A DNA stretch of 64,000 nt from Giardia intestinalis (taxonomy: Eukaryota), in NCBI GenBank assembly GCA_000002435.2, contig CM018793.1. One strand, given 5' to 3'. The notes under the pieces were generated by a model. The model saw only the letters and a list, made by a program, of their open reading frames with translations, did not search any database and was not told the origin of the DNA. The translations under genes were made by a program, and so were the position numbers. Numbering within the stretch: position 1 is the stretch's first letter; each line of letters starts with the position of its first letter. Below, piece after piece: positions 34,666 to 50,488 of this stretch.

Positions 34666-37600
34666 ATGTCTAGGTATATACGGTGAACAATATGGCGAAT
34701 GTTAATGGTATTTATTCTTTCCCCTGTTTCATTTAAAAAGGATATGTCAATGTGTGAGATTGCAGAATAATGTTATTGTACACAAACAACATTTTATCGG
34801 GTGGAGGTACTAAGCATAGATCGGATCATCATTAGACTGTTCAAGTAAACTACCCGGCTGAGTCGTCCCTCAAAGTGGCCTTTCATTGAATCTTAGCCCA
34901 CCATTCGGCTCTGGTGAGGAAGAGAACCTCTTAATTTACTCTCTGCTTCACCGAGGCGGCCGCCCGCTGCTGCCCGAGCATCTCCGTGAGGATCGCCGCT
35001 CCTCGCGATGCCTCTAGGGTTCCTTCCTTCCTCTGGCTAGCTTGGGGCAACCATCGTCTGGCACCTGGGTGACCACACACTATCTCAGGGCCTGCTGTCG
35101 ATCACGGCGATCTGGCTTCCACGTGGCCCTGGTGCTAGTTCTCCGTGACGAGAATCGCACGCCATGAGCCTCGGGTGTCCACCCCGTTCCTCGGGGTGCC
35201 TCTTCATCTCCCCATGACGTGAATCATCGACCCTGCTGTCGGAGGTGCGCTCCACGTACGCCTCCATCTTGGAGTCATAGTACGCATTCGTGGATGCCGA
35301 CGGAGTACTCCCATGCGTTGTGTCGGGGGAGAAGTATGGCCCTCCTGCTCATGGATCGCAGTGCACTCTTGCAGGCGGTCCGTCACCCAGCACGAGACCG
35401 TGTCGACGCCCATCCTGTGCAGTGCATCTGGCTCAGTGACGTGTGGGCTGGTCCATCTGCACAGCACACCTGGGGTGATGCTTCGGTCTGTCGAGGCGTC
35501 GGTCCAGGACCACCTCTCTGAGAGGCGTCGTCTGAGGCACCAAGAGCGATTAGGACCGGTTCACCGAAGTCGGCTTGCTCGGTAGCCGGCACCCGCCTAC
35601 TCGGGGGTGTCAGGCACTGCCAACTGCTGTGGCAGACCCCTGGCAGGTGGCCCGGGCCACCACTCTTCGGTGCAGGCAGGATCAGCCCGCCTCTGTCAGC
35701 CAAGCACCCCAGGGGCCGACTTGCCTGTCGAGGGATTCACATGGGCCGCGTGTGGGTCCATCCCGGCCAGCACGGCGAGTGATTAGTGCCATCACTGACT
35801 TCAGGCTCTCTGCCGCCTTGGGGGCTCCTTGAGACCGGCCAGGAAGGAGGCCCCCTGCCCCTCCGTGCTCCTGCACCCGGTGGTGACCGTCGAGCCATGT
35901 TGCTTCGCCGGGCCTGTCGCTTCTGTGACTGCCCCGTCGCGTCGCTGTCGTCGGCACGGGCAGTGAGCGGGGCATCTCCTTCAGCTCCTGGTGAGCAGGT
36001 TCTGTCCCCCGCAGCACAGAAGCATGCGCAGGGCCCCGAGGGATCGAGCCCAGGGGTGCAGCGCGTCGCAGCCGGAGGAAGGCCCCGACGCAGCTCCTCG
36101 GGACGGGGCATACTCGCCTGGCAGAGGCCGTCTACTGTTGGAATGTTCGCTATGTCGAGCAAGACCGCTGTGTTCCATCAGTCTGCGCCTCTCTGCGCCA
36201 TGCAAATGCCGCCCATGTGCAGTCGGTGGAACGCAGTCTGCTCGGTCTCAAGGAAGACCAGTGTCTGGGTCTCCAGGGGACTCGGAACTGCCTTGTGGAG
36301 CGCATCATGATAATCCACCGATTGCACTTGCCCTGCCTCGTCCTTGGGAAGAGGGAAGAACAAGAGTTTTTCTCCCGTCGAAGTCGCTTGACACTCACCT
36401 TCGAACTCTGGATCTGGATCTCGGTTGGTGAACGAGCGAGGGACTTGCCCAGGGAGGCGGTGGCTCGCATGAGAGACCACTCAGATAGCAGGCGACAGCC
36501 CCACCCCGGCTAAAAAACTTGAGGCAGCCGTTGCACCCGCCGCCCTCAGGACAGAGTTTCTGCATGCATGGCTAGCTGCCCTTGCCAGTTCGGTCTACTG
36601 GTCCGGTAGTCTGAGGACCCTCTGCCCCGCTCTCTGGCGTACGATGCATCGCAACTGCTCATACGGGTAAGCAGCGTGAAAGAGGAATTGCATGTGCAGA
36701 CAGCGTGTTGTGCTCGTCTCAGAGGCCCAGGGCTTCTAAAGGCGAATTGCTGTGCTGAGCCACACGCCTCATTGCCTTGCGCCGGTGACTGCCTCCACCA
36801 CCGTCTTCGTTGCACTTGGGCTGTGCCTGCCCAGCAGACTGAGCAGAGATTACAGAAGCTTCTCTAATAATGCACACACGCCGCATAAGGTCTGATGGTA
36901 GAATGGACACCGCCTGTTTGAGCTATCTGTTATCAGTGAAGAATAGCACCAGAGATGCTTCTGTGTAAGCATGGGGTCTTCGCACCTGTCCCCTATCAGC
37001 TATAGCGACAGCTATATATCCAGAAAGGTCCTGCAGAGCGCTCCACCGTCTTTCAAGGTGAGACATGAGCTCCACACCTATGGCTAAAACAGAACTCTGT
37101 ACACCAACTGTTGTAAGCCTCATGTGATAACTGGTCTGTATCATAGTCAACTTACTAAGCATCTATACACTTGTTTGGATGCCCGTTGCTGGTTTTAGAC
37201 GGACCTGCGAAGAGGCTTGCCTTTGTCCGCATTGACCTAGTGGTATCTAGTCTTGGTGACAGGCTTCAAGGAAGGAGGATGTTATTTGGGTACATAGAAG
37301 GCTACTCGTGTACAAAGATCCTCGAGAAGCAAATTTAGACAAAGAAGATGGAGAAAGCCAGGGAGCCCACTCTGTAATAGGATGACTAGGTATAGACCCA
37401 TATTGCAATAAGGACACACGTGAGTCCCTCTGGCTTCTAGCCGTGGAAAATCGTGGAGTCTGCGGACGACTTGGAGGCTGATTTGATTTTGTGCATTTGT
37501 AGCGAGGCAGAGGCTTCTGGATACTCAACTGTTCCGAAGTCGAGGGAGCTCGTTTCCTCTCCATACGTAGCGCAAGACCCTATTGTAGAGGTATACGGTG

Positions 37601-39384
37601 CACACCAATATCAGTCAGCGTGTTTGCTACTCAGCAGTTCCTCAGTTGCGTCTTTCCGCAGTAGACGAGCCACCGGATGATGCTCCCACAATCCACACGA
37701 TTAGCTTTATAGTGCTCTGTAGATGGCCATCCACCCTTACCAGAGGACGACTACACGCATTACGCAGTTTGAGGTACTTGCCAATCGAGGTGGCATAGTC
37801 AGCTCTTGCCCGCTCAAGCTAGACCTCAACCACCTTGCCAACTACATTCCAAGTCACGGTGTTTATAGATGTCCACCTCAAGTCTGCAAGGTGCATCCCA
37901 CGACTGCACAGCGCGGATAGAAATCCTTGCCTGTTATAAGAGGCGCCAACCAGTTTACTGCATCTGGATATCCCTTGTGCGCCCAACAGAGACTTAATGG
38001 ATCACATTGCTGTGCACACCAGCCTCTCTGCTCGCGAGCTGCTTTAGGGCTCTCTCATTGTCTCGCCTCCACATGGTTGTCAGACTACCAAGCACTTTGT
38101 AACGTCAGCTGATCACCCGAGATATCAAGCTTTCGTACAGCGGGTTGCTCAATGTGACACGAAATCTAGAGGGCACTGACGTTCCTAGCTTGCTGTCCAT
38201 ATAGCACTATCATCAATCTTCAGTCCAGTTGACCAGCACACAGTCCGTTCTCTGGCCAGCCAACCGGGCCTAGTCTTGCTGGTAGACTTTCGAGCATAAG
38301 AGTATCCCCTGACAGCGGTGGCCACGCTGTGTACATTGCCCGGATGATCACTCTTGGCAATGGCTCCAGGACCTGGGCACCCCAGACCAGAGGGACGACA
38401 ACGGCCCAGTTCGTCTACGGCTCCACTATCCCTTAGTTAGCATGGAGTGTGGCAGCCCAGATAGCGCTGGCCGTCCGGTATCACCTTTTCTCCGGTGCGC
38501 GGGGGTAGCCCTCGTGTGAGAGGCGCTGTGATATGTTGGCTGGAGCCGGTCAGGCGAGCGGGACCACCGCTCTAGAAGTGCTGGCACATCATTGCGTGTC
38601 CGAAGGCATGCCCACCTCAGTGGGACCATCCCAGATGAGGACGGACGGGCACCGGTTCCTAGATGGGCCTGCGACCGGCGAGGGACAGTCTTTAAAGACG
38701 ATCGGCCGGCAGAGCCCTTCAGTGGCATAGGAGTCGACAGGGGGCAGGCTTATCGACGGTCTGCGGTGCAACCAGGTTAAGTCGTATGACAGACGGACAT
38801 CCATCCGTTCGCGGTGGGCATGTTGCGTGTCCCTAAGCAGAGGGGGCAGTCGTAGTGAGTCGCGATAGAACACGCAGCCATCCTCCACGGGGCATCGCTC
38901 CTGCCGGGCCTCAATGTAGGACCTCGACGAGCAGTGTCTGAGGCATCTGCTTGTGATGACCCGTGGCTCGGGCTGCTGGACATCGCACGGCCGGCTCCAT
39001 CGGGTCGCTGGTCAGGCATCCAGGAGAACCTAGGAGTTCCTTGGCAGACCTTGTGACTGGCACAGCAGGAGAGCTGGTCGCCAGGAGACCATCACATCAC
39101 AGTGAAGAGCTAGACAGGCCACCGTGTAGCAGTTATCATGTGATGCGCCTTGCAATGTAAAGGAGGAGATCTGCACTGATCGATCCATCTTCATGGCCGG
39201 CTAGTTACATGGGACCCGGGGATGGCAGGCCATGAGACTGGAATCAGCACGCTCCCACCTCTCAACGCAGACCCATGTGGAGGCCCTCCCTGCCAGTGTG
39301 TTATGCAGCACAGGCAGATGCCACGAAAGGACGGACTGACGAGCGAAGTTGCTATATCCCTGTGTAACAGAGCGTCGAGCCACA

Positions 39385-41166
39385 ATGTTCTACGCAGTTT
39401 TGCTGATTGGCCTCATGCTCGAGATGGCATGGGCAGCGCAAGCCGGAGACGAATGTGAGGAGGTAACTGGCAGTGAACCCAATACTTGCAAGACCTGTAG
39501 CGCCGTCATCAACGGCAAGAAGTACTGCTCGCAGTGCAACGACACTGGGAATTCTAATTCCGGTGGCGCCCCGACAGACGGAGTGTGCTCAGCAGACAAT
39601 AACGAGTGCAGCCAAAAACAAGATGGGAAGTGTACACAGTGCGCTAATAAATCCTTCATGTACAAGGGCGGATGCTACAAGGATAGCCAGGCACCTGGCA
39701 ACACGATGTGTGAAACAGCAACTGATGGAGTGTGCACGCAGGCTAAGGCTGGGTACTTCCTACCACCCGATGCTGATAGAGATAATGCACACCAATCGGT
39801 CATACCATGTGGAGATGTTGAAGAAGTGTTGGTTGGAAACAGCCACAAGTACAAGGGCGTGCTGCACTGCAAAGTGTGTGATGCACCCAAAGCAGCAGCA
39901 AGTGATACTAATCCTGTGCCTGCCACGTGCACAACCTGTGAGGACGGGTTCTTTGGCCCCACTTGTGAAGCATGCCAAGACGAGAATTGTGCTACGTGTG
40001 CCGTAACAGGCAATAACAAGTGCAGTAAGTGTAAAGGAACTGGTACTAAGACATATCTGAAAGTGGACAGTGGCAGCACAGGCACGTGCGTCGAAGCATC
40101 TGGATGTACAGCGGCTACGTTTCCAAAGGTCGATGAACAACAGGGAAACAAGTGCGCTGCATGTAATAGTGTGCCAGATGGTGGAATCGCTAATTGTGCG
40201 ACGTGCAGTCTGCTCACTCAAGGATCTAGAGCCGCCCCTTTGGTCACATGCTTGACGTGTGAACAAAATAAGTATCTCACTCCAGAAAAGAATGCGTGCT
40301 TAGATACCTGCCCTGCTGGAATGTATGCCGTTAGTGGCGATAGCGGCAATGTTTGTACCCCCTGCCACGAGTCATGCGCAAGCTGTAGTACTAATGCAAA
40401 AACGTCGTGTACGGCTTGCTACCCTGGGTATGTGCTAAGCAAGGGCGACGATGGAGCCACCGGCACATGCATCCCAGAGTGCACGGGAAGGTATGCAGAG
40501 AATTGCGCAGACGGGCAGTGCACGGCCGTCGTTGGGGGCTCCAAGTACTGCAGCAAGTGCAAGGCCGGATACGCCCCAGTGGACGGCGTCTGTGTGTCGA
40601 CAACGACAAGGGCAGCACTTGGATGCACCCCGGGTGACGGAGTATGTACTGCGTGTACAGGTTCATACTTCCTGCAGTCTGGCGGGTGCTATCAGTCGAC
40701 AGCATACCCAGGTAACACATTATGCAGTAGTGCTCAGAACGGACAGTGTCAGACATGTGCAGCCAATGGACAAAGCCCAGCCGGAGGAAAATGTCCGGAA
40801 TGTTCTGAGGGCTGTGCAAAGTGTGGGGCTAGCAATTCGGATGTTTGTACTGAATGCTATTCTGGATATTATAGAACTGGTACTGGTAAGTGTTTCAAAT
40901 GTGCAGCTGATAGCGATAATGGAATAGTTGGTGTGCCTAATTGCGTAAGCTGTGCTCCTCCATCTAATGGTCAAGGATCTGTCATCTGCTACATAACGCG
41001 ACAAGAGACTGACGATGGCACCGGCGGAGACACTGGAGGAGACAGCATGAACAAGAGCGGCCTCTCCACGGGTGCCATCGCGGGGATCTCTGTGGCTGTG
41101 GTCGTCGTTGTGGGGGGCCTCGTAGGCTTTCTCTGCTGGTGGTTTATCTGCCGTGGAAAGGCGTAG
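39385..41166 (+). CDS. vsp: Variant-specific surface protein (VSP), copy A
   Basis: Signal peptide MFYAVLLIGLMLEMAWA, many CXXC motifs, GGCY motif (KGGCYKDSQAPGN), C-terminal TM plus invariant CRGKA tail. The track start at 39349 is a TTG; first ATG at 39385. AGTAAAC poly(A) signal 15 nt after the stop. Confidence 0.9.
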   Translation: MFYAVLLIGLMLEMAWAAQAGDECEEVTGSEPNTCKTCSAVINGKKYCSQCNDTGNSNSGGAPTDGVCSADNNECSQKQDGKCTQCANKSFMYKGGCYKDSQAPGNTMCETATDGVCTQAKAGYFLPPDADRDNAHQSVIPCGDVEEVLVGNSHKYKGVLHCKVCDAPKAAASDTNPVPATCTTCEDGFFGPTCEACQDENCATCAVTGNNKCSKCKGTGTKTYLKVDSGSTGTCVEASGCTAATFPKVDEQQGNKCAACNSVPDGGIANCATCSLLTQGSRAAPLVTCLTCEQNKYLTPEKNACLDTCPAGMYAVSGDSGNVCTPCHESCASCSTNAKTSCTACYPGYVLSKGDDGATGTCIPECTGRYAENCADGQCTAVVGGSKYCSKCKAGYAPVDGVCVSTTTRAALGCTPGDGVCTACTGSYFLQSGGCYQSTAYPGNTLCSSAQNGQCQTCAANGQSPAGGKCPECSEGCAKCGASNSDVCTECYSGYYRTGTGKCFKCAADSDNGIVGVPNCVSCAPPSNGQGSVICYITRQETDDGTGGDTGGDSMNKSGLSTGAIAGISVAVVVVVGGLVGFLCWWFICRGKA

Positions 41167-41180
41167 ATGTACTTAGGTAG

Positions 41181-41187
41181 TAAACGC
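41181..41187 (+). terminator. Giardia poly(A) signal AGTAAAC in the conserved VSP 3' end (GTACTTAGGTAGTAAAC)
   Basis: Matches AGTRAAY 15 nt downstream of the VSP stop codon. Confidence 0.6.
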
Positions 41188-41627
41188 GTCACTGTATATG
41201 GCTTATTACACTATGCTGCTGGGGCTATCTGAGTGTGGCCCAGAGATTGTGCGGGTGGACCCGCTCCTTCCTGGCCAGTTCAGAGACGAGGGTTGAGTAT
41301 GGATAACATAATGAAAGAGTCCTCTTCAGTGACACATCCAGAATCTGGGCATTCCTCGCCGCTCCATGAGGATATGCTCTGTCTGGATGTCCATGCCGAT
41401 CTGCCTTGGATTCAGGCCTTCTCGCAGGCTCTCTGCTCTACCGGTGGCGCCTCTCCATGGTCTGCCGCCTTGGTGGGTGAAGCTCCGATCGCTGTCTTTT
41501 TTAGATGCTCCCGTCTGTCAGGGGCTGCCCTCGGGCTCTCCGCTGGCTGGGCCCTCGGTGTCCGCCCGGCTGTGGTTCTGGGCAGTGCTCTACAGTCGCG
41601 GTCACGCAGGTCTCAGTGGGCCAGCTG

Positions 41628-41684
41628 GTGGGTGGGGCGGGGGTTGATGGGGCGGTGGGACTGGAGGGGACCGGGTGGGGGGTG
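41628..41684 (+). repeat. G-quadruplex-prone G-run cluster at the arm A / spacer junction. The mirrored C-rich copy is at ~43426-43482 (G-rich on the minus strand).
   Basis: GGTGGGTGGGGCGGGGGTTGATGGGGCGGTGGGACTGGAGGGGACCGGGTGGGGGGTG has at least 8 runs of G3 or more. Confidence 0.6.
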
Positions 41685-43943
41685 TTCGTATGTGCCCCTG
41701 GGTCCGGTGGGCCATCGGGGTGGTGGGTGGGGTGATCCCCACTCTGTTTGCTAACGTAATTGTGTCTGATCTCCAGCCTTCGTTGCACTCCCCGAGACAG
41801 AGGCACCGACGATCGTGTCGTGTCCCCCTGACTGAGTGCCTCCCTTGGCCCCTGCATGTCTCAGGCAGTACTGCTGCTCTGTCTGGCTGGTGCATGAGTG
41901 TCGAGGCAGGCCATCGCAGTCTCTCCTGCTACTCCTTGATGCTCTGTGCGGGTCTGCTGAGCCCCTGGCATGCCCTGTCCAGTGCCTCGACGGTAGTTCG
42001 CCTCGGGCCAGCAGGGGCATGGATGAGCCTGTGGATGGGATGGGGTTCTCTCATGCCTCTAGTGTGATGGCCCAGAAGACTGGCACGGTGGGGCACCGGT
42101 GACTGCACTGTCCCCGTGGTCAGCTGTGCTGCTCCTGGTGGGTCCTTGTTGTGGAGCGCTGTGTATCATCCGTAGGCAGGGGTAAGCCATCCCTGGTCTC
42201 AGGATGCTCTATCATGCAGAGAGGAGCACGCTGAGGGTCACCCACACCTCACCTGCTGTGCCCGCTCGGAAGTTCCTGATGTGATCCACCAGGACCTTGA
42301 CACCTCTCGTGGCTCTGATGACCCCTCGGGGAGAGCCGGGGTGTCCTATGCCAGGGAGGCGTGCACCTTCCTGCATGAGCTGGGCCATCCACTGCACTGC
42401 CTCCAAGGAGGTCTGCTATGAGAGGCAGTGGGATGATCGACAGCCCCAGAGTGCGGTGGAGGGTGCTCGTGGTCGTCTCTGTGATCGGGCATCACTCATG
42501 ATGGTCAGTCCTGTGCCTGTGTGGTGCTCAGAGGCCACCTGTCTGCCTCATCGCCTGCTGGACAGCCGGGCCTCTTGTGGTGTCCGAAGATCTCCTCACT
42601 CCTCTGGCTGCTGCCCCCTCTGGTCATCGATGGAGGCCAGCGGAGTCTTCGGTGAGTCTGGTGCCTGCCTGGGTGTCATGGGGGCTGGCAGCTGTCAGGG
42701 CTCTGCCACTGCTCACCTGCCTGGAGTGTGCCTCCCTTGGGCCTGCTCTACTGTGCTGCGTGAGTCCTCTGGCTTCCTATCAGGCCCTGATTGTGAGGGT
42801 GACCCCACCTGGCCTTCTGATGCCCCTGTGGATGAGCATGGCAAGGTGTCTGGCTGGGGATCTCTAGTGCCCGTGTCTGTTGCTGCCTCTCGGGTGCTCG
42901 GGTGGCTGTCTGGGGATCTCGTACGGGGCACAGTCAGCGTGTCCCGAGCAGACTCCGGTCCTCTCTGGGTCCACACAGTCTGTCCGTGTGTGGATGGTCC
43001 TCCTACACTCATGTCCATCTGTGCACACTGTCACTCAGCCTCGAGAGCAGACCAGTGCAGTCACCAGGGTCGCTGTCAGAGGGAGTCGTCTGCCACTACC
43101 ACTGTTCGAGCAGACTCTACAGCTCAGGCTGGCTGCTGTGCACCCTCATGGCAGGGATACTTGACTCCCCTTGGTCATCCTCTCTGCCCCGGTGTGCACG
43201 GCTCCTTCGGGTGGCCTCTGGTGAGTCTGCACTGGGAGGCACAGAAGAGCAAAGGCAGTCCTTGCTGGCACCACTCTCCGGCTCCTGAGGGTTGTCTGGG
43301 TGGAGGCACTCACAGATCACGAGCACACAGAGGGATGAGTCACAAGGGGACAGCCCCCAGTCACCACAGCTATGATCACCCCAGTCTATCGAGTGGCCAG
43401 GGGCATATACAGACACCCCCCATCTCAGCCCCCACCCGGTCCCCTCCAGTCCCACCGCCCCATCAACCCCCGCCCCACCCACCAGCTGGCCCACTGAGAC
43501 CTGCGTGACCGCGACTGTAGAGCACTGCCCAGAACCACAGCCGGGCGGACACCGAGGGCCCAGCCAGCGGAGAGCCCGAGGGCAGCCCCTGACAGACGGG
43601 AGCATCTAAAAAAGACAGCGATCGGAGCTTCACCCACCAAGGCGGCAGACCATGGAGAGGCGCCACCGGTAGAGCAGAGAGCCTGCGAGAAGGCCTGAAT
43701 CCAAGGCAGATCGGCATGGACATCCAGACAGAGCATATCCTCATGGAGCGGCGAGGAATGCCCAGATTCTGGATGTGTCACTGAAGAGGACTCTTTCATT
43801 ATGTTATCCATACTCAACCCTCGTCTCTGAACTGGCCAGGAAGGAGCGGGTCCACCCGCACAATCTCTGGGCCACACTCAGATAGCCCCAGCAGCATAGT
43901 GTAATAAGCCATATACAGTGACGCGTTTACTACCTAAGTACAT

Positions 43944-45725
43944 CTACGCCTTTCCACGGCAGATAAACCACCAGCAGAGAAAGCCTACGAGGCCCCCCAC
44001 AACGACGACCACAGCCACAGAGATCCCCGCGATGGCACCCGTGGAGAGGCCGCTCTTGTTCATGCTGTCTCCTCCAGTGTCTCCGCCGGTGCCATCGTCA
44101 GTCTCTTGTCGCGTTATGTAGCAGATGACAGATCCTTGACCATTAGATGGAGGAGCACAGCTTACGCAATTAGGCACACCAACTATTCCATTATCGCTAT
44201 CAGCTGCACATTTGAAACACTTACCAGTACCAGTTCTATAATATCCAGAATAGCATTCAGTACAAACATCCGAATTGCTAGCCCCACACTTTGCACAGCC
44301 CTCAGAACATTCCGGACATTTTCCTCCGGCTGGGCTTTGTCCATTGGCTGCACATGTCTGACACTGTCCGTTCTGAGCACTACTGCATAATGTGTTACCT
44401 GGGTATGCTGTCGACTGATAGCACCCGCCAGACTGCAGGAAGTATGAACCTGTACACGCAGTACATACTCCGTCACCCGGGGTGCATCCAAGTGCTGCCC
44501 TTGTCGTTGTCGACACACAGACGCCGTCCACTGGGGCGTATCCGGCCTTGCACTTGCTGCAGTACTTGGAGCCCCCAACGACGGCCGTGCACTGCCCGTC
44601 TGCGCAATTCTCTGCATACCTTCCCGTGCACTCTGGGATGCATGTGCCGGTGGCTCCATCGTCGCCCTTGCTTAGCACATACCCAGGGTAGCAAGCCGTA
44701 CACGACGTTTTTGCATTAGTACTACAGCTTGCGCATGACTCGTGGCAGGGGGTACAAACATTGCCGCTATCGCCACTAACGGCATACATTCCAGCAGGGC
44801 AGGTATCTAAGCACGCATTCTTTTCTGGAGTGAGATACTTATTTTGTTCACACGTCAAGCATGTGACCAAAGGGGCGGCTCTAGATCCTTGAGTGAGCAG
44901 ACTGCACGTCGCACAATTAGCGATTCCACCATCTGGCACACTATTACATGCAGCGCACTTGTTTCCCTGTTGTTCATCGACCTTTGGAAACGTAGCCGCT
45001 GTACATCCAGATGCTTCGACGCACGTGCCTGTGCTGCCACTGTCCACTTTCAGATATGTCTTAGTACCAGTTCCTTTACACTTACTGCACTTGTTATTGC
45101 CTGTTACGGCACACGTAGCACAATTCTCGTCTTGGCATGCTTCACAAGTGGGGCCAAAGAACCCGTCCTCACAGGTTGTGCACGTGGCAGGCACAGGATT
45201 AGTATCACTTGCTGCTGCTTTGGGTGCATCACACACTTTGCAGTGCAGCACGCCCTTGTACTTGTGGCTGTTTCCAACCAACACTTCTTCAACATCTCCA
45301 CATGGTATGACCGATTGGTGTGCATTATCTCTATCAGCATCGGGTGGTAGGAAGTACCCAGCCTTAGCCTGCGTGCACACTCCATCAGTTGCTGTTTCAC
45401 ACATCGTGTTGCCAGGTGCCTGGCTATCCTTGTAGCATCCGCCCTTGTACATGAAGGATTTATTAGCGCACTGTGTACACTTCCCATCTTGTTTTTGGCT
45501 GCACTCGTTATTGTCTGCTGAGCACACTCCGTCTGTCGGGGCGCCACCGGAATTAGAATTCCCAGTGTCGTTGCACTGCGAGCAGTACTTCTTGCCGTTG
45601 ATGACGGCGCTACAGGTCTTGCAAGTATTGGGTTCACTGCCAGTTACCTCCTCACATTCGTCTCCGGCTTGCGCTGCCCATGCCATCTCGAGCATGAGGC
45701 CAATCAGCAAAACTGCGTAGAACAT
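43944..45725 (-). CDS. vsp: Variant-specific surface protein (VSP), copy B, identical to copy A
   Basis: The 605-aa ORF is identical to 39349..41166 on the opposite strand. The same CRGKA tail and poly(A) signal are mirrored at 43923-43929. Confidence 0.9.
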   Translation of the reverse strand: MFYAVLLIGLMLEMAWAAQAGDECEEVTGSEPNTCKTCSAVINGKKYCSQCNDTGNSNSGGAPTDGVCSADNNECSQKQDGKCTQCANKSFMYKGGCYKDSQAPGNTMCETATDGVCTQAKAGYFLPPDADRDNAHQSVIPCGDVEEVLVGNSHKYKGVLHCKVCDAPKAAASDTNPVPATCTTCEDGFFGPTCEACQDENCATCAVTGNNKCSKCKGTGTKTYLKVDSGSTGTCVEASGCTAATFPKVDEQQGNKCAACNSVPDGGIANCATCSLLTQGSRAAPLVTCLTCEQNKYLTPEKNACLDTCPAGMYAVSGDSGNVCTPCHESCASCSTNAKTSCTACYPGYVLSKGDDGATGTCIPECTGRYAENCADGQCTAVVGGSKYCSKCKAGYAPVDGVCVSTTTRAALGCTPGDGVCTACTGSYFLQSGGCYQSTAYPGNTLCSSAQNGQCQTCAANGQSPAGGKCPECSEGCAKCGASNSDVCTECYSGYYRTGTGKCFKCAADSDNGIVGVPNCVSCAPPSNGQGSVICYITRQETDDGTGGDTGGDSMNKSGLSTGAIAGISVAVVVVVGGLVGFLCWWFICRGKA

Positions 45726-48700
45726 TGTGGCTCGACGCTCTGTTACACAGGGATATAGCAACTTCGCTCGTCAGTCCGTCCTTTCGTGGCATCTGCCTGT
45801 GCTGCATAACACACTGGCAGGGAGGGCCTCCACATGGGTCTGCGTTGAGAGGTGGGAGCGTGCTGATTCCAGTCTCATGGCCTGCCATCCCCGGGTCCCA
45901 TGTAACTAGCCGGCCATGAAGATGGATCGATCAGTGCAGATCTCCTCCTTTACATTGCAAGGCGCATCACATGATAACTGCTACACGGTGGCCTGTCTAG
46001 CTCTTCACTGTGATGTGATGGTCTCCTGGCGACCAGCTCTCCTGCTGTGCCAGTCACAAGGTCTGCCAAGGAACTCCTAGGTTCTCCTGGATGCCTGACC
46101 AGCGACCCGATGGAGCCGGCCGTGCGATGTCCAGCAGCCCGAGCCACGGGTCATCACAAGCAGATGCCTCAGACACTGCTCGTCGAGGTCCTACATTGAG
46201 GCCCGGCAGGAGCGATGCCCCGTGGAGGATGGCTGCGTGTTCTATCGCGACTCACTACGACTGCCCCCTCTGCTTAGGGACACGCAACATGCCCACCGCG
46301 AACGGATGGATGTCCGTCTGTCATACGACTTAACCTGGTTGCACCGCAGACCGTCGATAAGCCTGCCCCCTGTCGACTCCTATGCCACTGAAGGGCTCTG
46401 CCGGCCGATCGTCTTTAAAGACTGTCCCTCGCCGGTCGCAGGCCCATCTAGGAACCGGTGCCCGTCCGTCCTCATCTGGGATGGTCCCACTGAGGTGGGC
46501 ATGCCTTCGGACACGCAATGATGTGCCAGCACTTCTAGAGCGGTGGTCCCGCTCGCCTGACCGGCTCCAGCCAACATATCACAGCGCCTCTCACACGAGG
46601 GCTACCCCCGCGCACCGGAGAAAAGGTGATACCGGACGGCCAGCGCTATCTGGGCTGCCACACTCCATGCTAACTAAGGGATAGTGGAGCCGTAGACGAA
46701 CTGGGCCGTTGTCGTCCCTCTGGTCTGGGGTGCCCAGGTCCTGGAGCCATTGCCAAGAGTGATCATCCGGGCAATGTACACAGCGTGGCCACCGCTGTCA
46801 GGGGATACTCTTATGCTCGAAAGTCTACCAGCAAGACTAGGCCCGGTTGGCTGGCCAGAGAACGGACTGTGTGCTGGTCAACTGGACTGAAGATTGATGA
46901 TAGTGCTATATGGACAGCAAGCTAGGAACGTCAGTGCCCTCTAGATTTCGTGTCACATTGAGCAACCCGCTGTACGAAAGCTTGATATCTCGGGTGATCA
47001 GCTGACGTTACAAAGTGCTTGGTAGTCTGACAACCATGTGGAGGCGAGACAATGAGAGAGCCCTAAAGCAGCTCGCGAGCAGAGAGGCTGGTGTGCACAG
47101 CAATGTGATCCATTAAGTCTCTGTTGGGCGCACAAGGGATATCCAGATGCAGTAAACTGGTTGGCGCCTCTTATAACAGGCAAGGATTTCTATCCGCGCT
47201 GTGCAGTCGTGGGATGCACCTTGCAGACTTGAGGTGGACATCTATAAACACCGTGACTTGGAATGTAGTTGGCAAGGTGGTTGAGGTCTAGCTTGAGCGG
47301 GCAAGAGCTGACTATGCCACCTCGATTGGCAAGTACCTCAAACTGCGTAATGCGTGTAGTCGTCCTCTGGTAAGGGTGGATGGCCATCTACAGAGCACTA
47401 TAAAGCTAATCGTGTGGATTGTGGGAGCATCATCCGGTGGCTCGTCTACTGCGGAAAGACGCAACTGAGGAACTGCTGAGTAGAAAACACGCTGACTGAT
47501 ATTGGTGTGCACCGTATACCTCTACAATAGGGTCTTGCGCTACGTATGGAGAGGAAACGAGCTCCCTCGACTTCGGAACAGTTGAGTATCCAGAAGCCTC
47601 TGCCTCGCTACAAATGCACAAAATCAAATCAGCCTCCAAGTCGTCCGCAGACTCCACGATTTTCCACGGCTAGAAGCCAGAGGGACTCACGTGTGTCCTT
47701 ATTGCAATATGGGTCTATACCTAGTCATCCTATTACAGAGTGGGCTCCCTGGCTTTCTCCATCTTCTTTGTCTAAATTTGCTTCTCGAGGATCTTTGTAC
47801 ACGAGTAGCCTTCTATGTACCCAAATAACATCCTCCTTCCTTGAAGCCTGTCACCAAGACTAGATACCACTAGGTCAATGCGGACAAAGGCAAGCCTCTT
47901 CGCAGGTCCGTCTAAAACCAGCAACGGGCATCCAAACAAGTGTATAGATGCTTAGTAAGTTGACTATGATACAGACCAGTTATCACATGAGGCTTACAAC
48001 AGTTGGTGTACAGAGTTCTGTTTTAGCCATAGGTGTGGAGCTCATGTCTCACCTTGAAAGACGGTGGAGCGCTCTGCAGGACCTTTCTGGATATATAGCT
48101 GTCGCTATAGCTGATAGGGGACAGGTGCGAAGACCCCATGCTTACACAGAAGCATCTCTGGTGCTATTCTTCACTGATAACAGATAGCTCAAACAGGCGG
48201 TGTCCATTCTACCATCAGACCTTATGCGGCGTGTGTGCATTATTAGAGAAGCTTCTGTAATCTCTGCTCAGTCTGCTGGGCAGGCACAGCCCAAGTGCAA
48301 CGAAGACGGTGGTGGAGGCAGTCACCGGCGCAAGGCAATGAGGCGTGTGGCTCAGCACAGCAATTCGCCTTTAGAAGCCCTGGGCCTCTGAGACGAGCAC
48401 AACACGCTGTCTGCACATGCAATTCCTCTTTCACGCTGCTTACCCGTATGAGCAGTTGCGATGCATCGTACGCCAGAGAGCGGGGCAGAGGGTCCTCAGA
48501 CTACCGGACCAGTAGACCGAACTGGCAAGGGCAGCTAGCCATGCATGCAGAAACTCTGTCCTGAGGGCGGCGGGTGCAACGGCTGCCTCAAGTTTTTTAG
48601 CCGGGGTGGGGCTGTCGCCTGCTATCTGAGTGGTCTCTCATGCGAGCCACCGCCTCCCTGGGCAAGTCCCTCGCTCGTTCACCAACCGAGATCCAGATCC

Positions 48701-50488
48701 AGAGTTCGAAGGTGAGTGTCAAGCGACTTCGACGGGAGAAAAACTCTTGTTCTTCCCTCTTCCCAAGGACGAGGCAGGGCAAGTGCAATCGGTGGATTAT
48801 CATGATGCGCTCCACAAGGCAGTTCCGAGTCCCCTGGAGACCCAGACACTGGTCTTCCTTGAGACCGAGCAGACTGCGTTCCACCGACTGCACATGGGCG
48901 GCATTTGCATGGCGCAGAGAGGCGCAGACTGATGGAACACAGCGGTCTTGCTCGACATAGCGAACATTCCAACAGTAGACGGCCTCTGCCAGGCGAGTAT
49001 GCCCCGTCCCGAGGAGCTGCGTCGGGGCCTTCCTCCGGCTGCGACGCGCTGCACCCCTGGGCTCGATCCCTCGGGGCCCTGCGCATGCTTCTGTGCTGCG
49101 GGGGACAGAACCTGCTCACCAGGAGCTGAAGGAGATGCCCCGCTCACTGCCCGTGCCGACGACAGCGACGCGACGGGGCAGTCACAGAAGCGACAGGCCC
49201 GGCGAAGCAACATGGCTCGACGGTCACCACCGGGTGCAGGAGCACGGAGGGGCAGGGGGCCTCCTTCCTGGCCGGTCTCAAGGAGCCCCCAAGGCGGCAG
49301 AGAGCCTGAAGTCAGTGATGGCACTAATCACTCGCCGTGCTGGCCGGGATGGACCCACACGCGGCCCATGTGAATCCCTCGACAGGCAAGTCGGCCCCTG
49401 GGGTGCTTGGCTGACAGAGGCGGGCTGATCCTGCCTGCACCGAAGAGTGGTGGCCCGGGCCACCTGCCAGGGGTCTGCCACAGCAGTTGGCAGTGCCTGA
49501 CACCCCCGAGTAGGCGGGTGCCGGCTACCGAGCAAGCCGACTTCGGTGAACCGGTCCTAATCGCTCTTGGTGCCTCAGACGACGCCTCTCAGAGAGGTGG
49601 TCCTGGACCGACGCCTCGACAGACCGAAGCATCACCCCAGGTGTGCTGTGCAGATGGACATAGCCCACACATCACTGAGCCAGACACACTGCACAGGATG
49701 GGCGTCGACACGGTCTCGTGCTGGGTGACGGACCGCCTGCAAGAGTGCACTGCGATCCATGAGCAGGAGGGCCATACTTCTCCCCCGACACAACGCATGG
49801 GAGTACTCCGTCGGCATCCACGAATGCGTACTATGACTCCAAGATGGAGGCGTACGTGGAGCGCACCTCCGACAGCAGGGTCGATGATTCACGTCATGGG
49901 GAGATGAAGAGGCACCCCGAGGAACGGGGTGGACACCCGAGGCTCATGGCGTGCGATTCTCGTCACGGAGAACTAGCACCAGGGCCACGTGGAAGCCAGA
50001 TCGCCGTGATCGACAGCAGGCCCTGAGATAGTGTGTGGTCACCCAGGTGCCAGACGATGGTTGCCCCAAGCTAGCCAGAGGAAGGAAGGAACCCTAGAGG
50101 CATCGCGAGGAGCGGCGATCCTCACGGAGATGCTCGGGCAGCAGCGGGCGGCCGCCTCGGTGAAGCAGAGAGTAACTGGATTGGAAAGCATGACTTCCTC
50201 ACCGAAAAAGACCGAATTCGTCTGAATAGTATACGCACAAATAAATCATCTGGCCACCATTCACCATAGTAGACGTGCAATGCACTGGGAGAACACAGCT
50301 TTTGCCTTCTGTATATTTGAGCTACTCTGTGAGTAGATCCCTTCCATGCATAACTACTCCACTTGATTCGGTTAGTTATACCCTAGTAAAACGCCCTTTC
50401 ACCATACTTGGCTCTAGGCACATGATCACAACCAAGGCTTTATAACTTCAAAAGTTAAGGATAGAGTAAAGTTACTTTTGGCTTTGAG

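What the first reader, a model, noticed from the sequence alone, without database searches (positions are those of the whole stretch)
41628..43482. G-quadruplex motifs exactly at the arm/spacer junctions, and a strongly strand-asymmetric centre
The near-identical arms stop where dense G-runs begin (GGGTGGGGCGGGGG...GGGTGGGGGGTG at 41628-41684, with the mirrored C-rich copy at 43426-43482). The unique centre (about 41700-43400) is markedly A-poor on the plus strand. This produces a 403-codon stop-free frame (42297..43508) encoding Pro/Ser/Cys/Gly-rich low-complexity sequence. G4-forming junctions bracketing a palindrome centre could mark a recombination breakpoint, a replication-fork stalling site or a regulatory element. 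The asymmetry hints that one strand is under selection or mutational bias (transcribed, or replication-associated).
Basis: seen in the sequence. Interest (0 to 1): 0.5.

Follow-up and report, generated by a model that had tools for sequence, protein, structure and literature searches.

The report
G-rich ends of Giardia VSP palindrome spacer
This is the non-coding 2.8-kb stretch between two identical, convergent surface-antigen (VSP) genes of Giardia; its G-quadruplex-prone tracts and A-poor centre are real and belong to a conserved repeated module, but the 403-codon "gene" inside it is an accident of base composition.

Summary
All five canonical G4 motifs of the 64-kb window lie at 41630-41727 (+) and 43416-43476 (C-rich); shuffles give about 0.45. 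The centre is 14.8% A, and the 403-codon open frame exists.

The locus is a catalogued one: the Giardia WB chromosome 5 tail-to-tail VSP pair 137708/137707 (593 aa, 2777 bp apart). Here it forms a 6.75-kb, 99.9%-identical palindrome.

The spacer is not unique. Homologous copies, about 90% identical, sit beside unrelated VSP genes on other Giardia contigs. The inverted repeat ends at the same nucleotides (…GTGCCCCTGG) in a second locus, so the junction is inherited and is not a fresh breakpoint.

The 403-aa frame is not a gene:
- its codon usage is atypical;
- homologues shift frame 10-17 times through 1-2-nt indels;
- substitutions show no codon-position bias.

No structured RNA was detected.

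The A-poor skew starts inside the arm (about 41400) and flips at about 43300. It is eroding rather than being generated, with 37 A gains against 13 losses.

The G tract is the most indel-prone part of the module, and the strict G4 motif is kept in only some copies.

Most likely this is the spacer module of the tail-to-tail VSP palindrome family. Any G4 function is untested. Interest is modest.

The parts
34936..41684 (+). Left arm of the palindrome (6749 nt). It holds 4.4 kb of non-coding upstream DNA, VSP copy 1 and its 518-nt 3' flank.
   Evidence: the repeat finder pairs I1 and I2. Global alignment of the arms shows 6 internal differences.
39385..41166 (+). VSP gene copy 1. It is 593 aa, starts in the context CAATGTT and ends ...CRGKA*.
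   Evidence: Translation. 593/593 identical to P0126 = KAE8305305.1/KAE8305306.1, Giardia WB. Matches 'chr5 137708/137707, -> <-, 593 aa, 2777 bp' in PMC7000408 Table 2.
41171..41185 (+). Extended VSP polyadenylation signal ACTTAGGTAGTAAAC; the mirror copy is at 43925-43939 on the - strand.
   Evidence: Pattern search. These are the only AGTRAA sites in the 2777-nt inter-ORF region. Homology to unpaired VSP loci ends just after this signal.
41400..41617 (+). A-poor (8% A), GC-rich distal part of the arm. It contains a conserved T6 at 41497-41502 (A6 at 43607-43612 in the mirror copy).
   Evidence: Composition. Alignment of five arms.
41618..41737 (+). G-rich tract on the sense strand of VSP copy 1: 14 G-runs and three non-overlapping canonical G4 motifs. 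The first 67 nt lie in the arm and the rest in the centre.
41677..41701 (+). Degenerate last 25 nt of the inverted repeat, GGGGGGTGTTCGTATGTGCCCCTGG. It pairs 22/25 with 43397-43421. L002 has the same end point.
41685..43425 (+). Asymmetric non-coding centre (spacer), 1741 nt: 62% GC, 14.8% A, CpG observed/expected 0.36.
   Evidence: No Pfam hit, no Rfam hit, fold z about 0.
42205..43198 (+). Conserved core of the centre, 90-92% identical among four loci.
42297..43508 (+). 403-codon stop-free frame. It is not a gene; it is an accident of this copy.
43199..43278 (+). 80-nt segment present only in this copy, bounded by the 8-nt direct repeat CGGCTCCT (43199 and 43279). It lies inside the 403-codon frame.
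43279..43415 (+). Right end of the centre. The A/T skew flips at about 43300.
43407..43495 (-). G-rich tract on the sense strand of VSP copy 2 (C-runs on +), with two canonical G4 motifs.
43426..50175 (-). Right arm of the palindrome (6750 nt).
43944..45725 (-). VSP gene copy 2, identical to copy 1.

Best explanation
The region is the non-coding inter-ORF module of a known tail-to-tail duplicated VSP pair, Giardia intestinalis WB chromosome 5, GL50803_00137708/137707.

The module has three parts: a roughly 535-nt inverted repeat formed by the VSP 3' flank, a 1.7-kb asymmetric centre, and the second copy of the inverted repeat. Each repeat copy ends, on the VSP sense strand, in a G-rich, indel-prone tract that can form G4.

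The module is a repeated element that travels with unrelated VSP genes.

Shown:
- Its inner repeat ends are inherited; the end point is the same in another locus.
- The centre is non-coding and shows no conserved RNA fold.
- The 403-codon frame is an artefact.
- The A-poor skew is an old compositional property that is now eroding.

Inferred mechanism:
- The short inverted repeat of the module lets the two sides pair. Arm-to-arm gene conversion or fold-back-primed synthesis then runs outward through the VSP gene. This creates the long, near-identical arms (6.75 kb here) and keeps them identical.
- Identity cannot extend inward past the fixed end of the repeat.
- The asymmetric centre serves as the loop or spacer that keeps a 15-kb palindrome replicable.
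- The G tract sits at the stem-loop junction. Its G4 potential may help, through fork pausing, strand opening or transcription pausing downstream of each VSP, or it may be incidental.
For: Identity of the locus:
- The VSP is 100% identical to the WB pair KAE8305305/6.
- 593 aa and a 2777-bp spacing match PMC7000408 Table 2.
- The 518-nt 3' identity and the abrupt divergence fit PMC2996952 Table 5, where most tail-to-tail pairs diverge 486-559 nt past the stop.

Repeated module:
- Window 41050-43217 aligns with L002 at 87.5% over 2190 nt.
- The core 42205-43198 is 90-92% identical in L001, L002 and L003, next to VSP genes that cannot be aligned beyond their conserved tail.
- L008 carries the arm at 88%, and its contig ends in the G tract.
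- Four unpaired VSP genes (two in L004, one each in L006 and L007) lose homology about 25 nt after the stop and have no G4 motif.
- All 12 tail-to-tail pairs of WB are 2526-2813 bp apart with no gene between them.
- A preprint notes nearly identical intergenic sequences between two other pairs.

Inherited boundary:
- The arms of L002 are 77-100% complementary and end at ...GTGCCCCTGG, as here.

Near-identity of the arms:
- There are 6 differences in 6.75 kb, 5 of them within 26 nt near the outer end.

Non-coding nature:
-.

Skew not ongoing:
-.
Against: - Gene conversion or fold-back synthesis is inferred from the pattern only. No population or time-series data were available.
- L002 (a module beside a single VSP) could be a decayed pair rather than a precursor.
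- The centre is more conserved (90-92%) than the arms (59-88%) in L001 and L003. A passive spacer does not predict this, so there may be constraint or exchange between modules.
- The 407-codon open run exceeds composition-only nulls (p about 0.003) and remains unexplained.
- The strict G4 motif is absent from three of the five other junctions seen (L001, L003 and the right junction of L002). This argues against a sequence-specific G4 role. It does not argue against a role for G-richness, since G4Hunter is 1.8-2.2 at all of them.
- The claim that all WB tail-to-tail pairs hold this module rests on spacing and on one published remark. The other WB loci could not be fetched.
Confidence: 0.6

Rival explanations
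1. The G tracts are active recombination initiators of the pilE type. G4 formation on the VSP sense strand stalls forks or recruits recombination proteins. The resulting nicks or breaks drive arm-to-arm conversion and VSP exchange between modules.
For: - All canonical G4 motifs of the window lie at the two junctions.
- The tract is the most indel-rich part of the module: 76% identity and 12 gap positions in 74 nt, against 89% on either side, plus a 46-nt deletion in L001 and L002.
- Modules are rearranged between loci.
- G4 motifs beside variant-antigen genes are a known theme in Neisseria, Borrelia and Plasmodium (PMC4412290, PMC5093961).
Against: - The canonical motif is not kept in L001, L003 or the right junction of L002.
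- The outer ends of the palindrome have no G-runs.
- The boundary is inherited rather than created locally.
- Antigen switching in Giardia is described as epigenetic or post-transcriptional, not recombinational (PMC2996952).
Confidence: 0.15
2. The G tracts are transcription pause or termination elements. G-rich non-template DNA 450-570 nt downstream of each VSP poly(A) signal favours R-loops or G4 and stops RNA polymerase. Convergent transcription then cannot run through the centre into the partner copy and make VSP double-stranded RNA.
For: - The G-rich strand is the sense strand of the adjacent VSP on both sides.
- No further AGTRAA signal exists on either strand in the 2777 nt.
- An unpaired VSP (L005) has a non-homologous A-poor, G-rich 3' flank that holds the only G4 motif of its 16.9-kb locus, on the sense strand.
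- The junction RNA folds into a G4 in the minimum-energy prediction.
Against: - Four other unpaired VSP 3' flanks have no such tract.
- No transcription data were available here.
- A preprint describes the annotated pseudogene between one tail-to-tail pair as non-transcribed.
- This idea does not explain the conserved 1.7-kb centre.
Confidence: 0.12
3. The centre is a source of non-coding or small RNA, for example a hairpin or antisense precursor acting in VSP silencing. The strand asymmetry then reflects a transcribed strand.
For: - The core is more conserved than the flanking arms.
- A conserved A6/T6 lies in each arm on the strand antisense to the VSP, and short AT-rich elements can act as promoters in Giardia (own knowledge).
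- A transcript crossing both arms would fold back on itself.
Against: - There is no Rfam match.
- Fold z-scores average about 0 on both strands.
- RNAalifold gives a covariation term of -2.6 out of -347 kcal/mol, with 3 of 328 pairs compensatory.
- The substitution spectrum is strand-symmetric.
Confidence: 0.08
4. The 403-codon frame (42297-43508) encodes a real Pro/Ser/Cys/Gly-rich protein.
For: - The open run is longer than in composition-preserving shuffles (p about 0.002-0.004).
- An identical 396-aa entry exists in a protein collection (P0001, UPI0001CA7288).
Against: - The codon log-likelihood is -0.065, below all 16 real genes, and composition is flat across codon positions.
- 11-13 indels per kb against each homologue, nearly all of 1-2 nt.
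- Substitutions per codon position are 32/22/30, 35/23/32 and 28/25/30.
- Homologues change frame 10-17 times.
- The consensus has no frame longer than 194 codons.
- An 80-nt copy-specific insertion lies inside the frame.
- There is no Pfam domain, and the current WB annotation lists no gene between the pair.
Confidence: 0.02

Closest known systems
Giardia inverted (tail-to-tail) identical VSP pairs (Adam et al. 2010, PMC2996952; Xu et al. 2020, PMC7000408; preprint 10.1101/2022.03.07.483299)
   Same: It is one of them. It has two identical convergent VSP ORFs 2777 bp apart. The 3' flanks are identical for 518 nt and then diverge abruptly. No gene is annotated between the copies. The pair is listed as chr5 137708/137707.
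   Different: In the text I could search, the papers give distances and note that some intergenic regions resemble each other. They do not describe the G4-prone tracts at the repeat ends, the A-poor and CpG-poor composition, the fixed repeat end point, or the 6.75-kb extent of the arms at this locus.
Large near-identical palindromes with a unique spacer kept uniform by arm-to-arm gene conversion (human Y-chromosome palindromes P1-P8; own knowledge)
   Same: It has long arms of 99.9% identity or more that carry members of a multigene family. A non-palindromic spacer and sharp inner boundaries are present. The differences are concentrated at an arm edge.
   Different: This palindrome is about 1000-fold smaller. 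Here the spacer itself is a conserved module shared by different palindromes, and the inner boundary is inherited with it. Conversion has not been demonstrated.
G4 motifs beside variant surface-antigen genes (N. gonorrhoeae pilE G4; Borrelia vls G-runs; P. falciparum var-associated motifs; PMC4412290, PMC5093961)
   Same: G4 motifs are rare in the surrounding genome but clustered next to variant-antigen genes, on a defined strand, at sites where homologous sequence tracts end or exchange.
   Different: The motifs here lie 3' of the gene at the end of an inverted repeat, not upstream or inside the gene. They are not strictly conserved between copies. No link to switching or recombination has been tested, and VSP switching is not known to need DNA recombination. 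The 2015 review does not mention Giardia.
G-rich RNA polymerase II pause or termination elements downstream of poly(A) signals (R-loop-dependent termination in mammals; own knowledge)
   Same: The non-template strand is G-rich downstream of the poly(A) signal of each of two convergent genes.
   Different: The tract lies about 450-570 nt from the signal. Nothing is known of such elements in Giardia. Most unpaired VSP genes examined lack the tract.

Membership tests
Giardia tail-to-tail identical VSP pair | Two identical VSP ORFs (signal peptide, CXXC-rich, ...CRGKA tail) in convergent orientation | tested here: met
   Translation. The arms are identical across the ORFs. 100% match to the WB pair KAE8305305/6.
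Giardia tail-to-tail identical VSP pair | About 2.4-3.2 kb of DNA without genes between the ORFs | tested here: met
   2777 nt, the same as Table 2 of PMC7000408. No coding signal.
Giardia tail-to-tail identical VSP pair | 3' flanks identical up to an abrupt divergence a few hundred nt past the stop codon | tested here: met
   518 nt of identity, or 535 nt counting the degenerate end. The published range is 318-559 nt.
Intramolecular G-quadruplex-forming sequence | Four or more G-runs of at least 3 with short loops, and a high G4Hunter score | tested here: met
   5 motifs with loops of 1-7 nt, G4Hunter 2.52. 0 of 1000 shuffles reach 5 motifs. A G4 appears in the minimum-energy RNA fold.
Intramolecular G-quadruplex-forming sequence | Cation-dependent folding shown by CD, melting or polymerase stop | not testable with these tools
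   This needs an experiment on the 41618-41737 oligonucleotides.
Functional G4 element (pilE or var type) | The motif is conserved across homologous copies | tested here: inconclusive
   The canonical motif is present at the left junction of L002 only. It is absent from L001, L003 and the right junction of L002. G4Hunter is 1.8-2.24 at all junctions. A 46-nt deletion removes part of the tract in L001 and L002.
Functional G4 element (pilE or var type) | Disrupting the G-runs changes recombination or expression | not testable with these tools
   No genetic data.
Protein-coding gene (the 403-aa frame) | Reading frame conserved in homologues, with substitutions concentrated at third positions | tested here: not met
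   10-17 frame changes per homologue. Indels are of 1-2 nt. Substitutions are spread evenly. The longest frame in the consensus is 194 codons.
Protein-coding gene (the 403-aa frame) | Codon usage like that of genes of the organism | tested here: not met
   LLR -0.065, against 0.079-0.256 for 16 window genes and 0.108 for the VSP.
Structured non-coding RNA | Match to a known family, unusually stable fold, or covarying base pairs | tested here: not met
   Rfam gives nothing at E up to 1. Mean z is +0.09 on the + strand and -0.09 on the - strand. 3 of 328 pairs are compensatory. With only four sequences, power is low.
Retrotransposon relic (a reverse-transcriptase remnant is reported between some head-to-head pairs) | Detectable reverse-transcriptase or other element-derived coding remnant | tested here: not met
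   No Pfam hit for seven ORFs of the module or ten ORFs of the upstream arm. PMC7000408 lists psi-RT only for '<- ->' pairs. DNA-level comparison with the GilM, GilT and GilD elements was not possible.

The most novel reading that the evidence does not exclude
The G4-prone tracts at the inner ends of the module are cis-acting elements. They control the tail-to-tail VSP palindromes either by triggering the arm-to-arm conversion and inter-module exchange that duplicates and reshuffles VSP genes, or by stopping convergent transcription so that the pair does not make its own double-stranded RNA. Either role would add Giardia to the pathogens in which G4 DNA is tied to variant-antigen loci.
Probability: 0.15. 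Interest if true: 0.65.

Novelty: new member of a known kind. Interest (0 to 1): 0.33.

Why it matters
About 30% of the intact VSP genes of Giardia WB sit in identical inverted pairs (38 of 133, PMC7000408). Adam et al. called these pairs 'an interesting, but cryptic observation' (PMC2996952).

Three results give a concrete, testable picture of how such pairs could arise and stay identical:
- tail-to-tail pairs share a conserved, non-coding module;
- the module has a fixed inverted-repeat end;
- the only G4 motifs in 64 kb sit exactly at that end.

The results also offer defined oligonucleotides and deletion targets for experiments.

The analysis also removes a false gene: the 403-aa frame, still present in a protein collection as UPI0001CA7288.

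If the G tracts proved functional, Giardia would join Neisseria, Borrelia and Plasmodium in linking G4 DNA to antigen-gene dynamics. As it stands, the finding adds descriptive detail to a known structure.

Tried and rejected
1. Protein-coding reading of the centre. Rejected.

2. Structured RNA. Rfam, sliding-window z-scores and RNAalifold on four copies gave nothing.

3. Hidden palindromy inside the spacer. Local alignment of the two spacer halves scored 26, against 22.3 +/- 2.4 in shuffles. Rejected, apart from the 25-nt degenerate extension.

4. Tandem or simple repeats as the source of the composition. TRF found only three trivial arrays.

5. Similarity of the centre to the VSP gene, to the other A-poor tract (34851-36200), or to anything else in the window. 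None was found.

6. Ongoing strand-biased mutation. Rejected by the symmetric polarised spectrum.

7. G4 as a general feature of VSP 3' flanks. Only 1 of 5 unpaired flanks has one.

8. G4 as a general feature of the palindrome ends. The outer ends have none.

9. Fetching the other WB tail-to-tail pairs. NCBI eukaryotic proteins are not in the position index.

10. JGI metagenome scans. The conserved 22-mer gave 0 hits. A 20-mer from the arm gave two chance matches, L009 and L010.

11. A third protein search in another frame. It added only three small ENA contigs.

12. Literature search for G4 in Giardia. It returned telomere papers only. Nothing usable was found on cytosine methylation in Giardia to explain the CpG depletion.
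Full report
WHAT IS THERE

The window is Giardia DNA. An ORF at 39385-41166 (+) encodes a 593-aa cysteine-rich protein with a signal peptide and the ...CRGKA tail. An identical copy lies at 43944-45725 (-). The protein is 593/593 identical to P0126 (KAE8305305.1/KAE8305306.1 = XP_001707979/80), a VSP of G. intestinalis WB on the 4.02-Mb chromosome. Its length and the 2777-bp gap match one entry in Table 2 of the WB reference-genome paper: 'chr 5, 137708/137707, -> <-, 593 aa, 2777 bp', with no gene listed between the copies (PMC7000408).

The two copies belong to a much larger palindrome. The arms are 34936-41684 and 43426-50175, with 1741 nt between them. The arms differ at only six internal positions, five of them within 35425-35450 near the outer end. 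The palindrome lies between an Rpb3-like gene and other ordinary genes. The 4.4 kb upstream of each VSP copy has no long ORF and no Pfam hit.

CHECK OF THE OBSERVATION

The G-runs are real and not due to chance. All five canonical G4 motifs (G3+, loops of 1-7 nt) of the 64-kb window lie at 41630-41727 (+) and 43416-43476 (as C-runs). The two highest G4Hunter values of the window (2.52) are at the same places. Dinucleotide shuffles give 0.47 motifs for the window and 0.44 for the local region; none of 1000 shuffles reaches five. With G4 energies switched on, ViennaRNA places a four-layer G4 in the minimum-energy fold of either junction. On both sides the G-rich strand is the sense strand of the adjacent VSP gene.

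- The 57-nt tract is the last part of each arm, not the point where the arms stop. The repeat continues in degenerate form (22 of 25 matches after a 12-nt indel) to 41701/43397. A third G4 motif (41700-41727) lies in the centre on the left side only.
- The A-poor tract is not the same as the centre. It begins inside the left arm at about 41400 and flips to T-poor at about 43300, which is 125 nt before the right arm.

The centre itself is 14.8% A. The 403-codon frame exists.

THE CENTRE IS NOT UNIQUE

A protein search with the 403-aa frame returned one identical entry and four ORF calls on metagenomic Giardia contigs. The contigs carry homologous DNA.

- Window 41050-43217 aligns with L002 at 87.5% over 2190 nt.
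- The core 42205-43198 is 90-92% identical in L001, L002 and L003.
- The adjacent VSP genes are alignable only over their conserved C-terminal tail.
- L008 is a further VSP with the arm at 88%. Its contig ends in the G tract, as expected where an assembler meets the end of a perfect repeat.
- Four unpaired VSP genes (two in L004, one each in L006 and L007) lose all similarity about 25 nt after the stop codon, just past the extended poly(A) signal, and have no G4 motif.

The roughly 520-nt flank, the G tract and the centre therefore form one module specific to this arrangement.

The literature fits this picture.

- All 12 '-> <-' pairs of WB are 2526-2813 bp apart.
- Most tail-to-tail pairs diverge 486-559 nt past the stop (PMC2996952 Table 5).
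- A preprint remarks that the intergenic regions of two other pairs are nearly identical (10.1101/2022.03.07.483299).

I could not fetch those WB loci. The statement that all tail-to-tail pairs hold this module is therefore an inference.

THE JUNCTION IS INHERITED

L002 has a complete module beside a single VSP. Its own arms are only 77-100% complementary, yet they end at ...GTGCCCCTGG, the same nucleotides as in the window. The arm/centre boundary is thus an old feature of the module, not a breakpoint created at this locus.

The G tract is the least conserved part of the module. It is 76% identical with 12 gap positions in 74 nt, against 89% on either side. A 46-nt deletion removes part of it in L001 and L002. 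G-richness is kept everywhere (G4Hunter 1.8-2.24), but the canonical motif is kept only at the left junction of L002. The outer ends of the palindrome have no G-runs.

THE 403-CODON FRAME IS NOT A GENE

- Against each homologue there are 11-13 indels per kb, nearly all of 1-2 nt.
- Substitutions are spread evenly over codon positions: 32/22/30, 35/23/32 and 28/25/30.
- Each homologue changes frame relative to the window's ORF 10-17 times and has stops in every frame.
- The majority consensus of four copies has no frame longer than 194 codons.
- An 80-nt segment found only in this copy lies inside the frame.
- The codon log-likelihood, trained on 16 genes of the window, is -0.065. Those genes score 0.079-0.256 and the VSP scores 0.108. 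Composition is flat across codon positions.
- There is no Pfam domain.

All stop codons, and their reverse complements, contain A on the + strand, so an A-poor strand is short of stops in all six frames. Even so, the 407-codon open run exceeds block shuffles (200 +/- 45 codons, p about 0.002-0.004). I treat this as a chance feature of this one copy, but it is not fully explained.

NO STRUCTURED RNA, AND NO ONGOING STRAND BIAS

Rfam gives nothing. Fold z-scores in 150-nt windows average +0.09 on the + strand and -0.09 on the - strand. RNAalifold on four core copies has a covariation term of -2.6 out of -347 kcal/mol, with 3 of 328 pairs compensatory.

I polarised 127 singleton substitutions among the four copies. 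Complementary rates are equal: A>G 0.094 against T>C 0.107, and G>A 0.117 against C>T 0.118. A is gained 37 times and lost 13 times. The skew is therefore an inherited property that is decaying. It is not the product of a current transcription- or replication-linked bias.

The centre is also the most CpG-depleted 1.7 kb of the window (observed/expected 0.36 against 0.74), with TpG and CpA at 1.6. I have no explanation for this.

HOW IT MOST LIKELY WORKS

Shown:
- There is a repeated non-coding module with a fixed inverted-repeat end.
- It lies beside unrelated VSP genes.
- In this locus its arms have been extended to 6.75 kb at 99.9% identity.

Inferred:
- The module's short inverted repeat lets the two sides pair. 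Conversion or fold-back-primed synthesis then proceeds outward through the VSP gene.
- This would explain four things: the constant ORF spacing, the locus-specific outer ends, the clustering of the few arm differences at the outer edge, and the existence of single-VSP modules such as L002.
- The asymmetric centre acts as the loop that keeps so large a palindrome from being a perfect hairpin.
- The G tract sits at the stem-loop junction.

Whether its G4 potential matters is open. It could act as a break or pause site for recombination, or as a transcription stop downstream of each of two convergent genes.

For a role:
- All G4 motifs of the window lie on the VSP sense strands.
- An unpaired VSP in L005 has a non-homologous A-poor, G-rich flank holding the only G4 motif of that locus.

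Against a role:
- The motif is poorly conserved between copies.
- It is absent from four of five unpaired flanks.

One thing does not fit a purely passive spacer. In L001 and L003 the core is more conserved (90-92%) than the arms (59-88%). Either it is constrained, or modules exchange sequence; the rearranged module in L001 suggests exchange does occur.

COMPARISON WITH WHAT IS KNOWN, AND NOVELTY

The palindromic VSP pair, its spacing and its gene-free gap are already published. The partial similarity of such gaps has been noted in a preprint.

Four features do not appear in the papers I could search:
- the G4-prone tracts at the repeat ends;
- the fixed end point of the repeat;
- the A-poor and CpG-poor composition;
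- the non-coding status of the old hypothetical ORF.

A review of G4s in pathogens does not mention Giardia. The finding therefore adds a new example to a known theme, G4 motifs next to variant-antigen genes, inside a known structure. No function has been shown.

VERDICT

- Observation: confirmed.
- Interpretation: partly supported.
- ORF: artefact.
- Interest: modest (0.33).

Noticed in passing
window 42001-43400: The centre is the most CpG-depleted stretch of the window (observed/expected 0.35-0.36 against a mean of 0.74), although it is among the most GC-rich. TpG and CpA are both at about 1.6. Other GC-rich non-coding parts of the arms are not depleted (0.68-0.77).
   Followed up: partly
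window 17916-19046 (+): A 376-aa ORF encodes only the N-terminal half of HSP90: HATPase_c plus HSP90 profile positions 1-165 of 518. This fits the split, trans-spliced HSP90 of Giardia (own knowledge). The T-poor tract 18301-18950 lies inside it.
   Followed up: partly
window 34851-36200 and mirror 48901-50200: A second GC-rich (65%), A-poor (15%) non-coding tract sits at the outer end of each arm, 3.2-4.5 kb upstream of the VSP. It shows no similarity to the centre and has no G4 motif at the outer palindrome boundary (34936/50175).
   Followed up: partly
window 35425-35450 and 37626 (mirror 49660-49686 and 47484): The only internal differences between the 6.75-kb arms are five within 26 nt near the outer end and one at 37626. 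This pattern is expected if homogenisation is less efficient at an arm edge.
   Followed up: no
window 43199-43278: An 80-nt segment is present only in this copy of the module. It is bounded by the 8-nt direct repeat CGGCTCCT (43199 and 43279). It looks like a microhomology-mediated deletion in the other copies, or a duplication here.
   Followed up: partly
window 41497-41502 (T6) and 43607-43612 (A6): A homopolymer run is conserved in every arm seen, inside an otherwise A-poor context. It reads CTAAAAAAG on the strand antisense to each VSP. It may be an AT-rich initiator for antisense transcription; this is speculative.
   Followed up: no
L005 11834-12401: An unpaired VSP has a 3' flank with no homology to the module. 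The flank is nonetheless A-poor (17%) and G-rich (35%), and it holds the only canonical G4 motif of that 16.9-kb locus (12118-12143, VSP sense strand, about 285 nt past the stop).
   Followed up: partly
L002 425-3030: A complete module with decayed arms (77-100% complementary, including one 77-nt patch at 100%) lies beside a single VSP. A Mec-17-type acetyltransferase gene sits where the second VSP would be, and no VSP tail remnant is visible.
   Followed up: partly
L001 1-480: The conserved core is preceded by an arm-like piece in direct rather than inverted orientation. That piece is homologous to L002 2737-3029. This is a rearranged module with a break near window position 42200; contig L003 also starts there.
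   Followed up: partly
window 41300-41754 (+) and L002 555-908: A small ORF in the arm starts MDNI.KESS in both loci. It goes out of frame for about 150 nt and then returns to the same frame (...FRC.RLSGAA.GLSAGWALGVRPAV). This is probably chance and was not tested.
   Followed up: no
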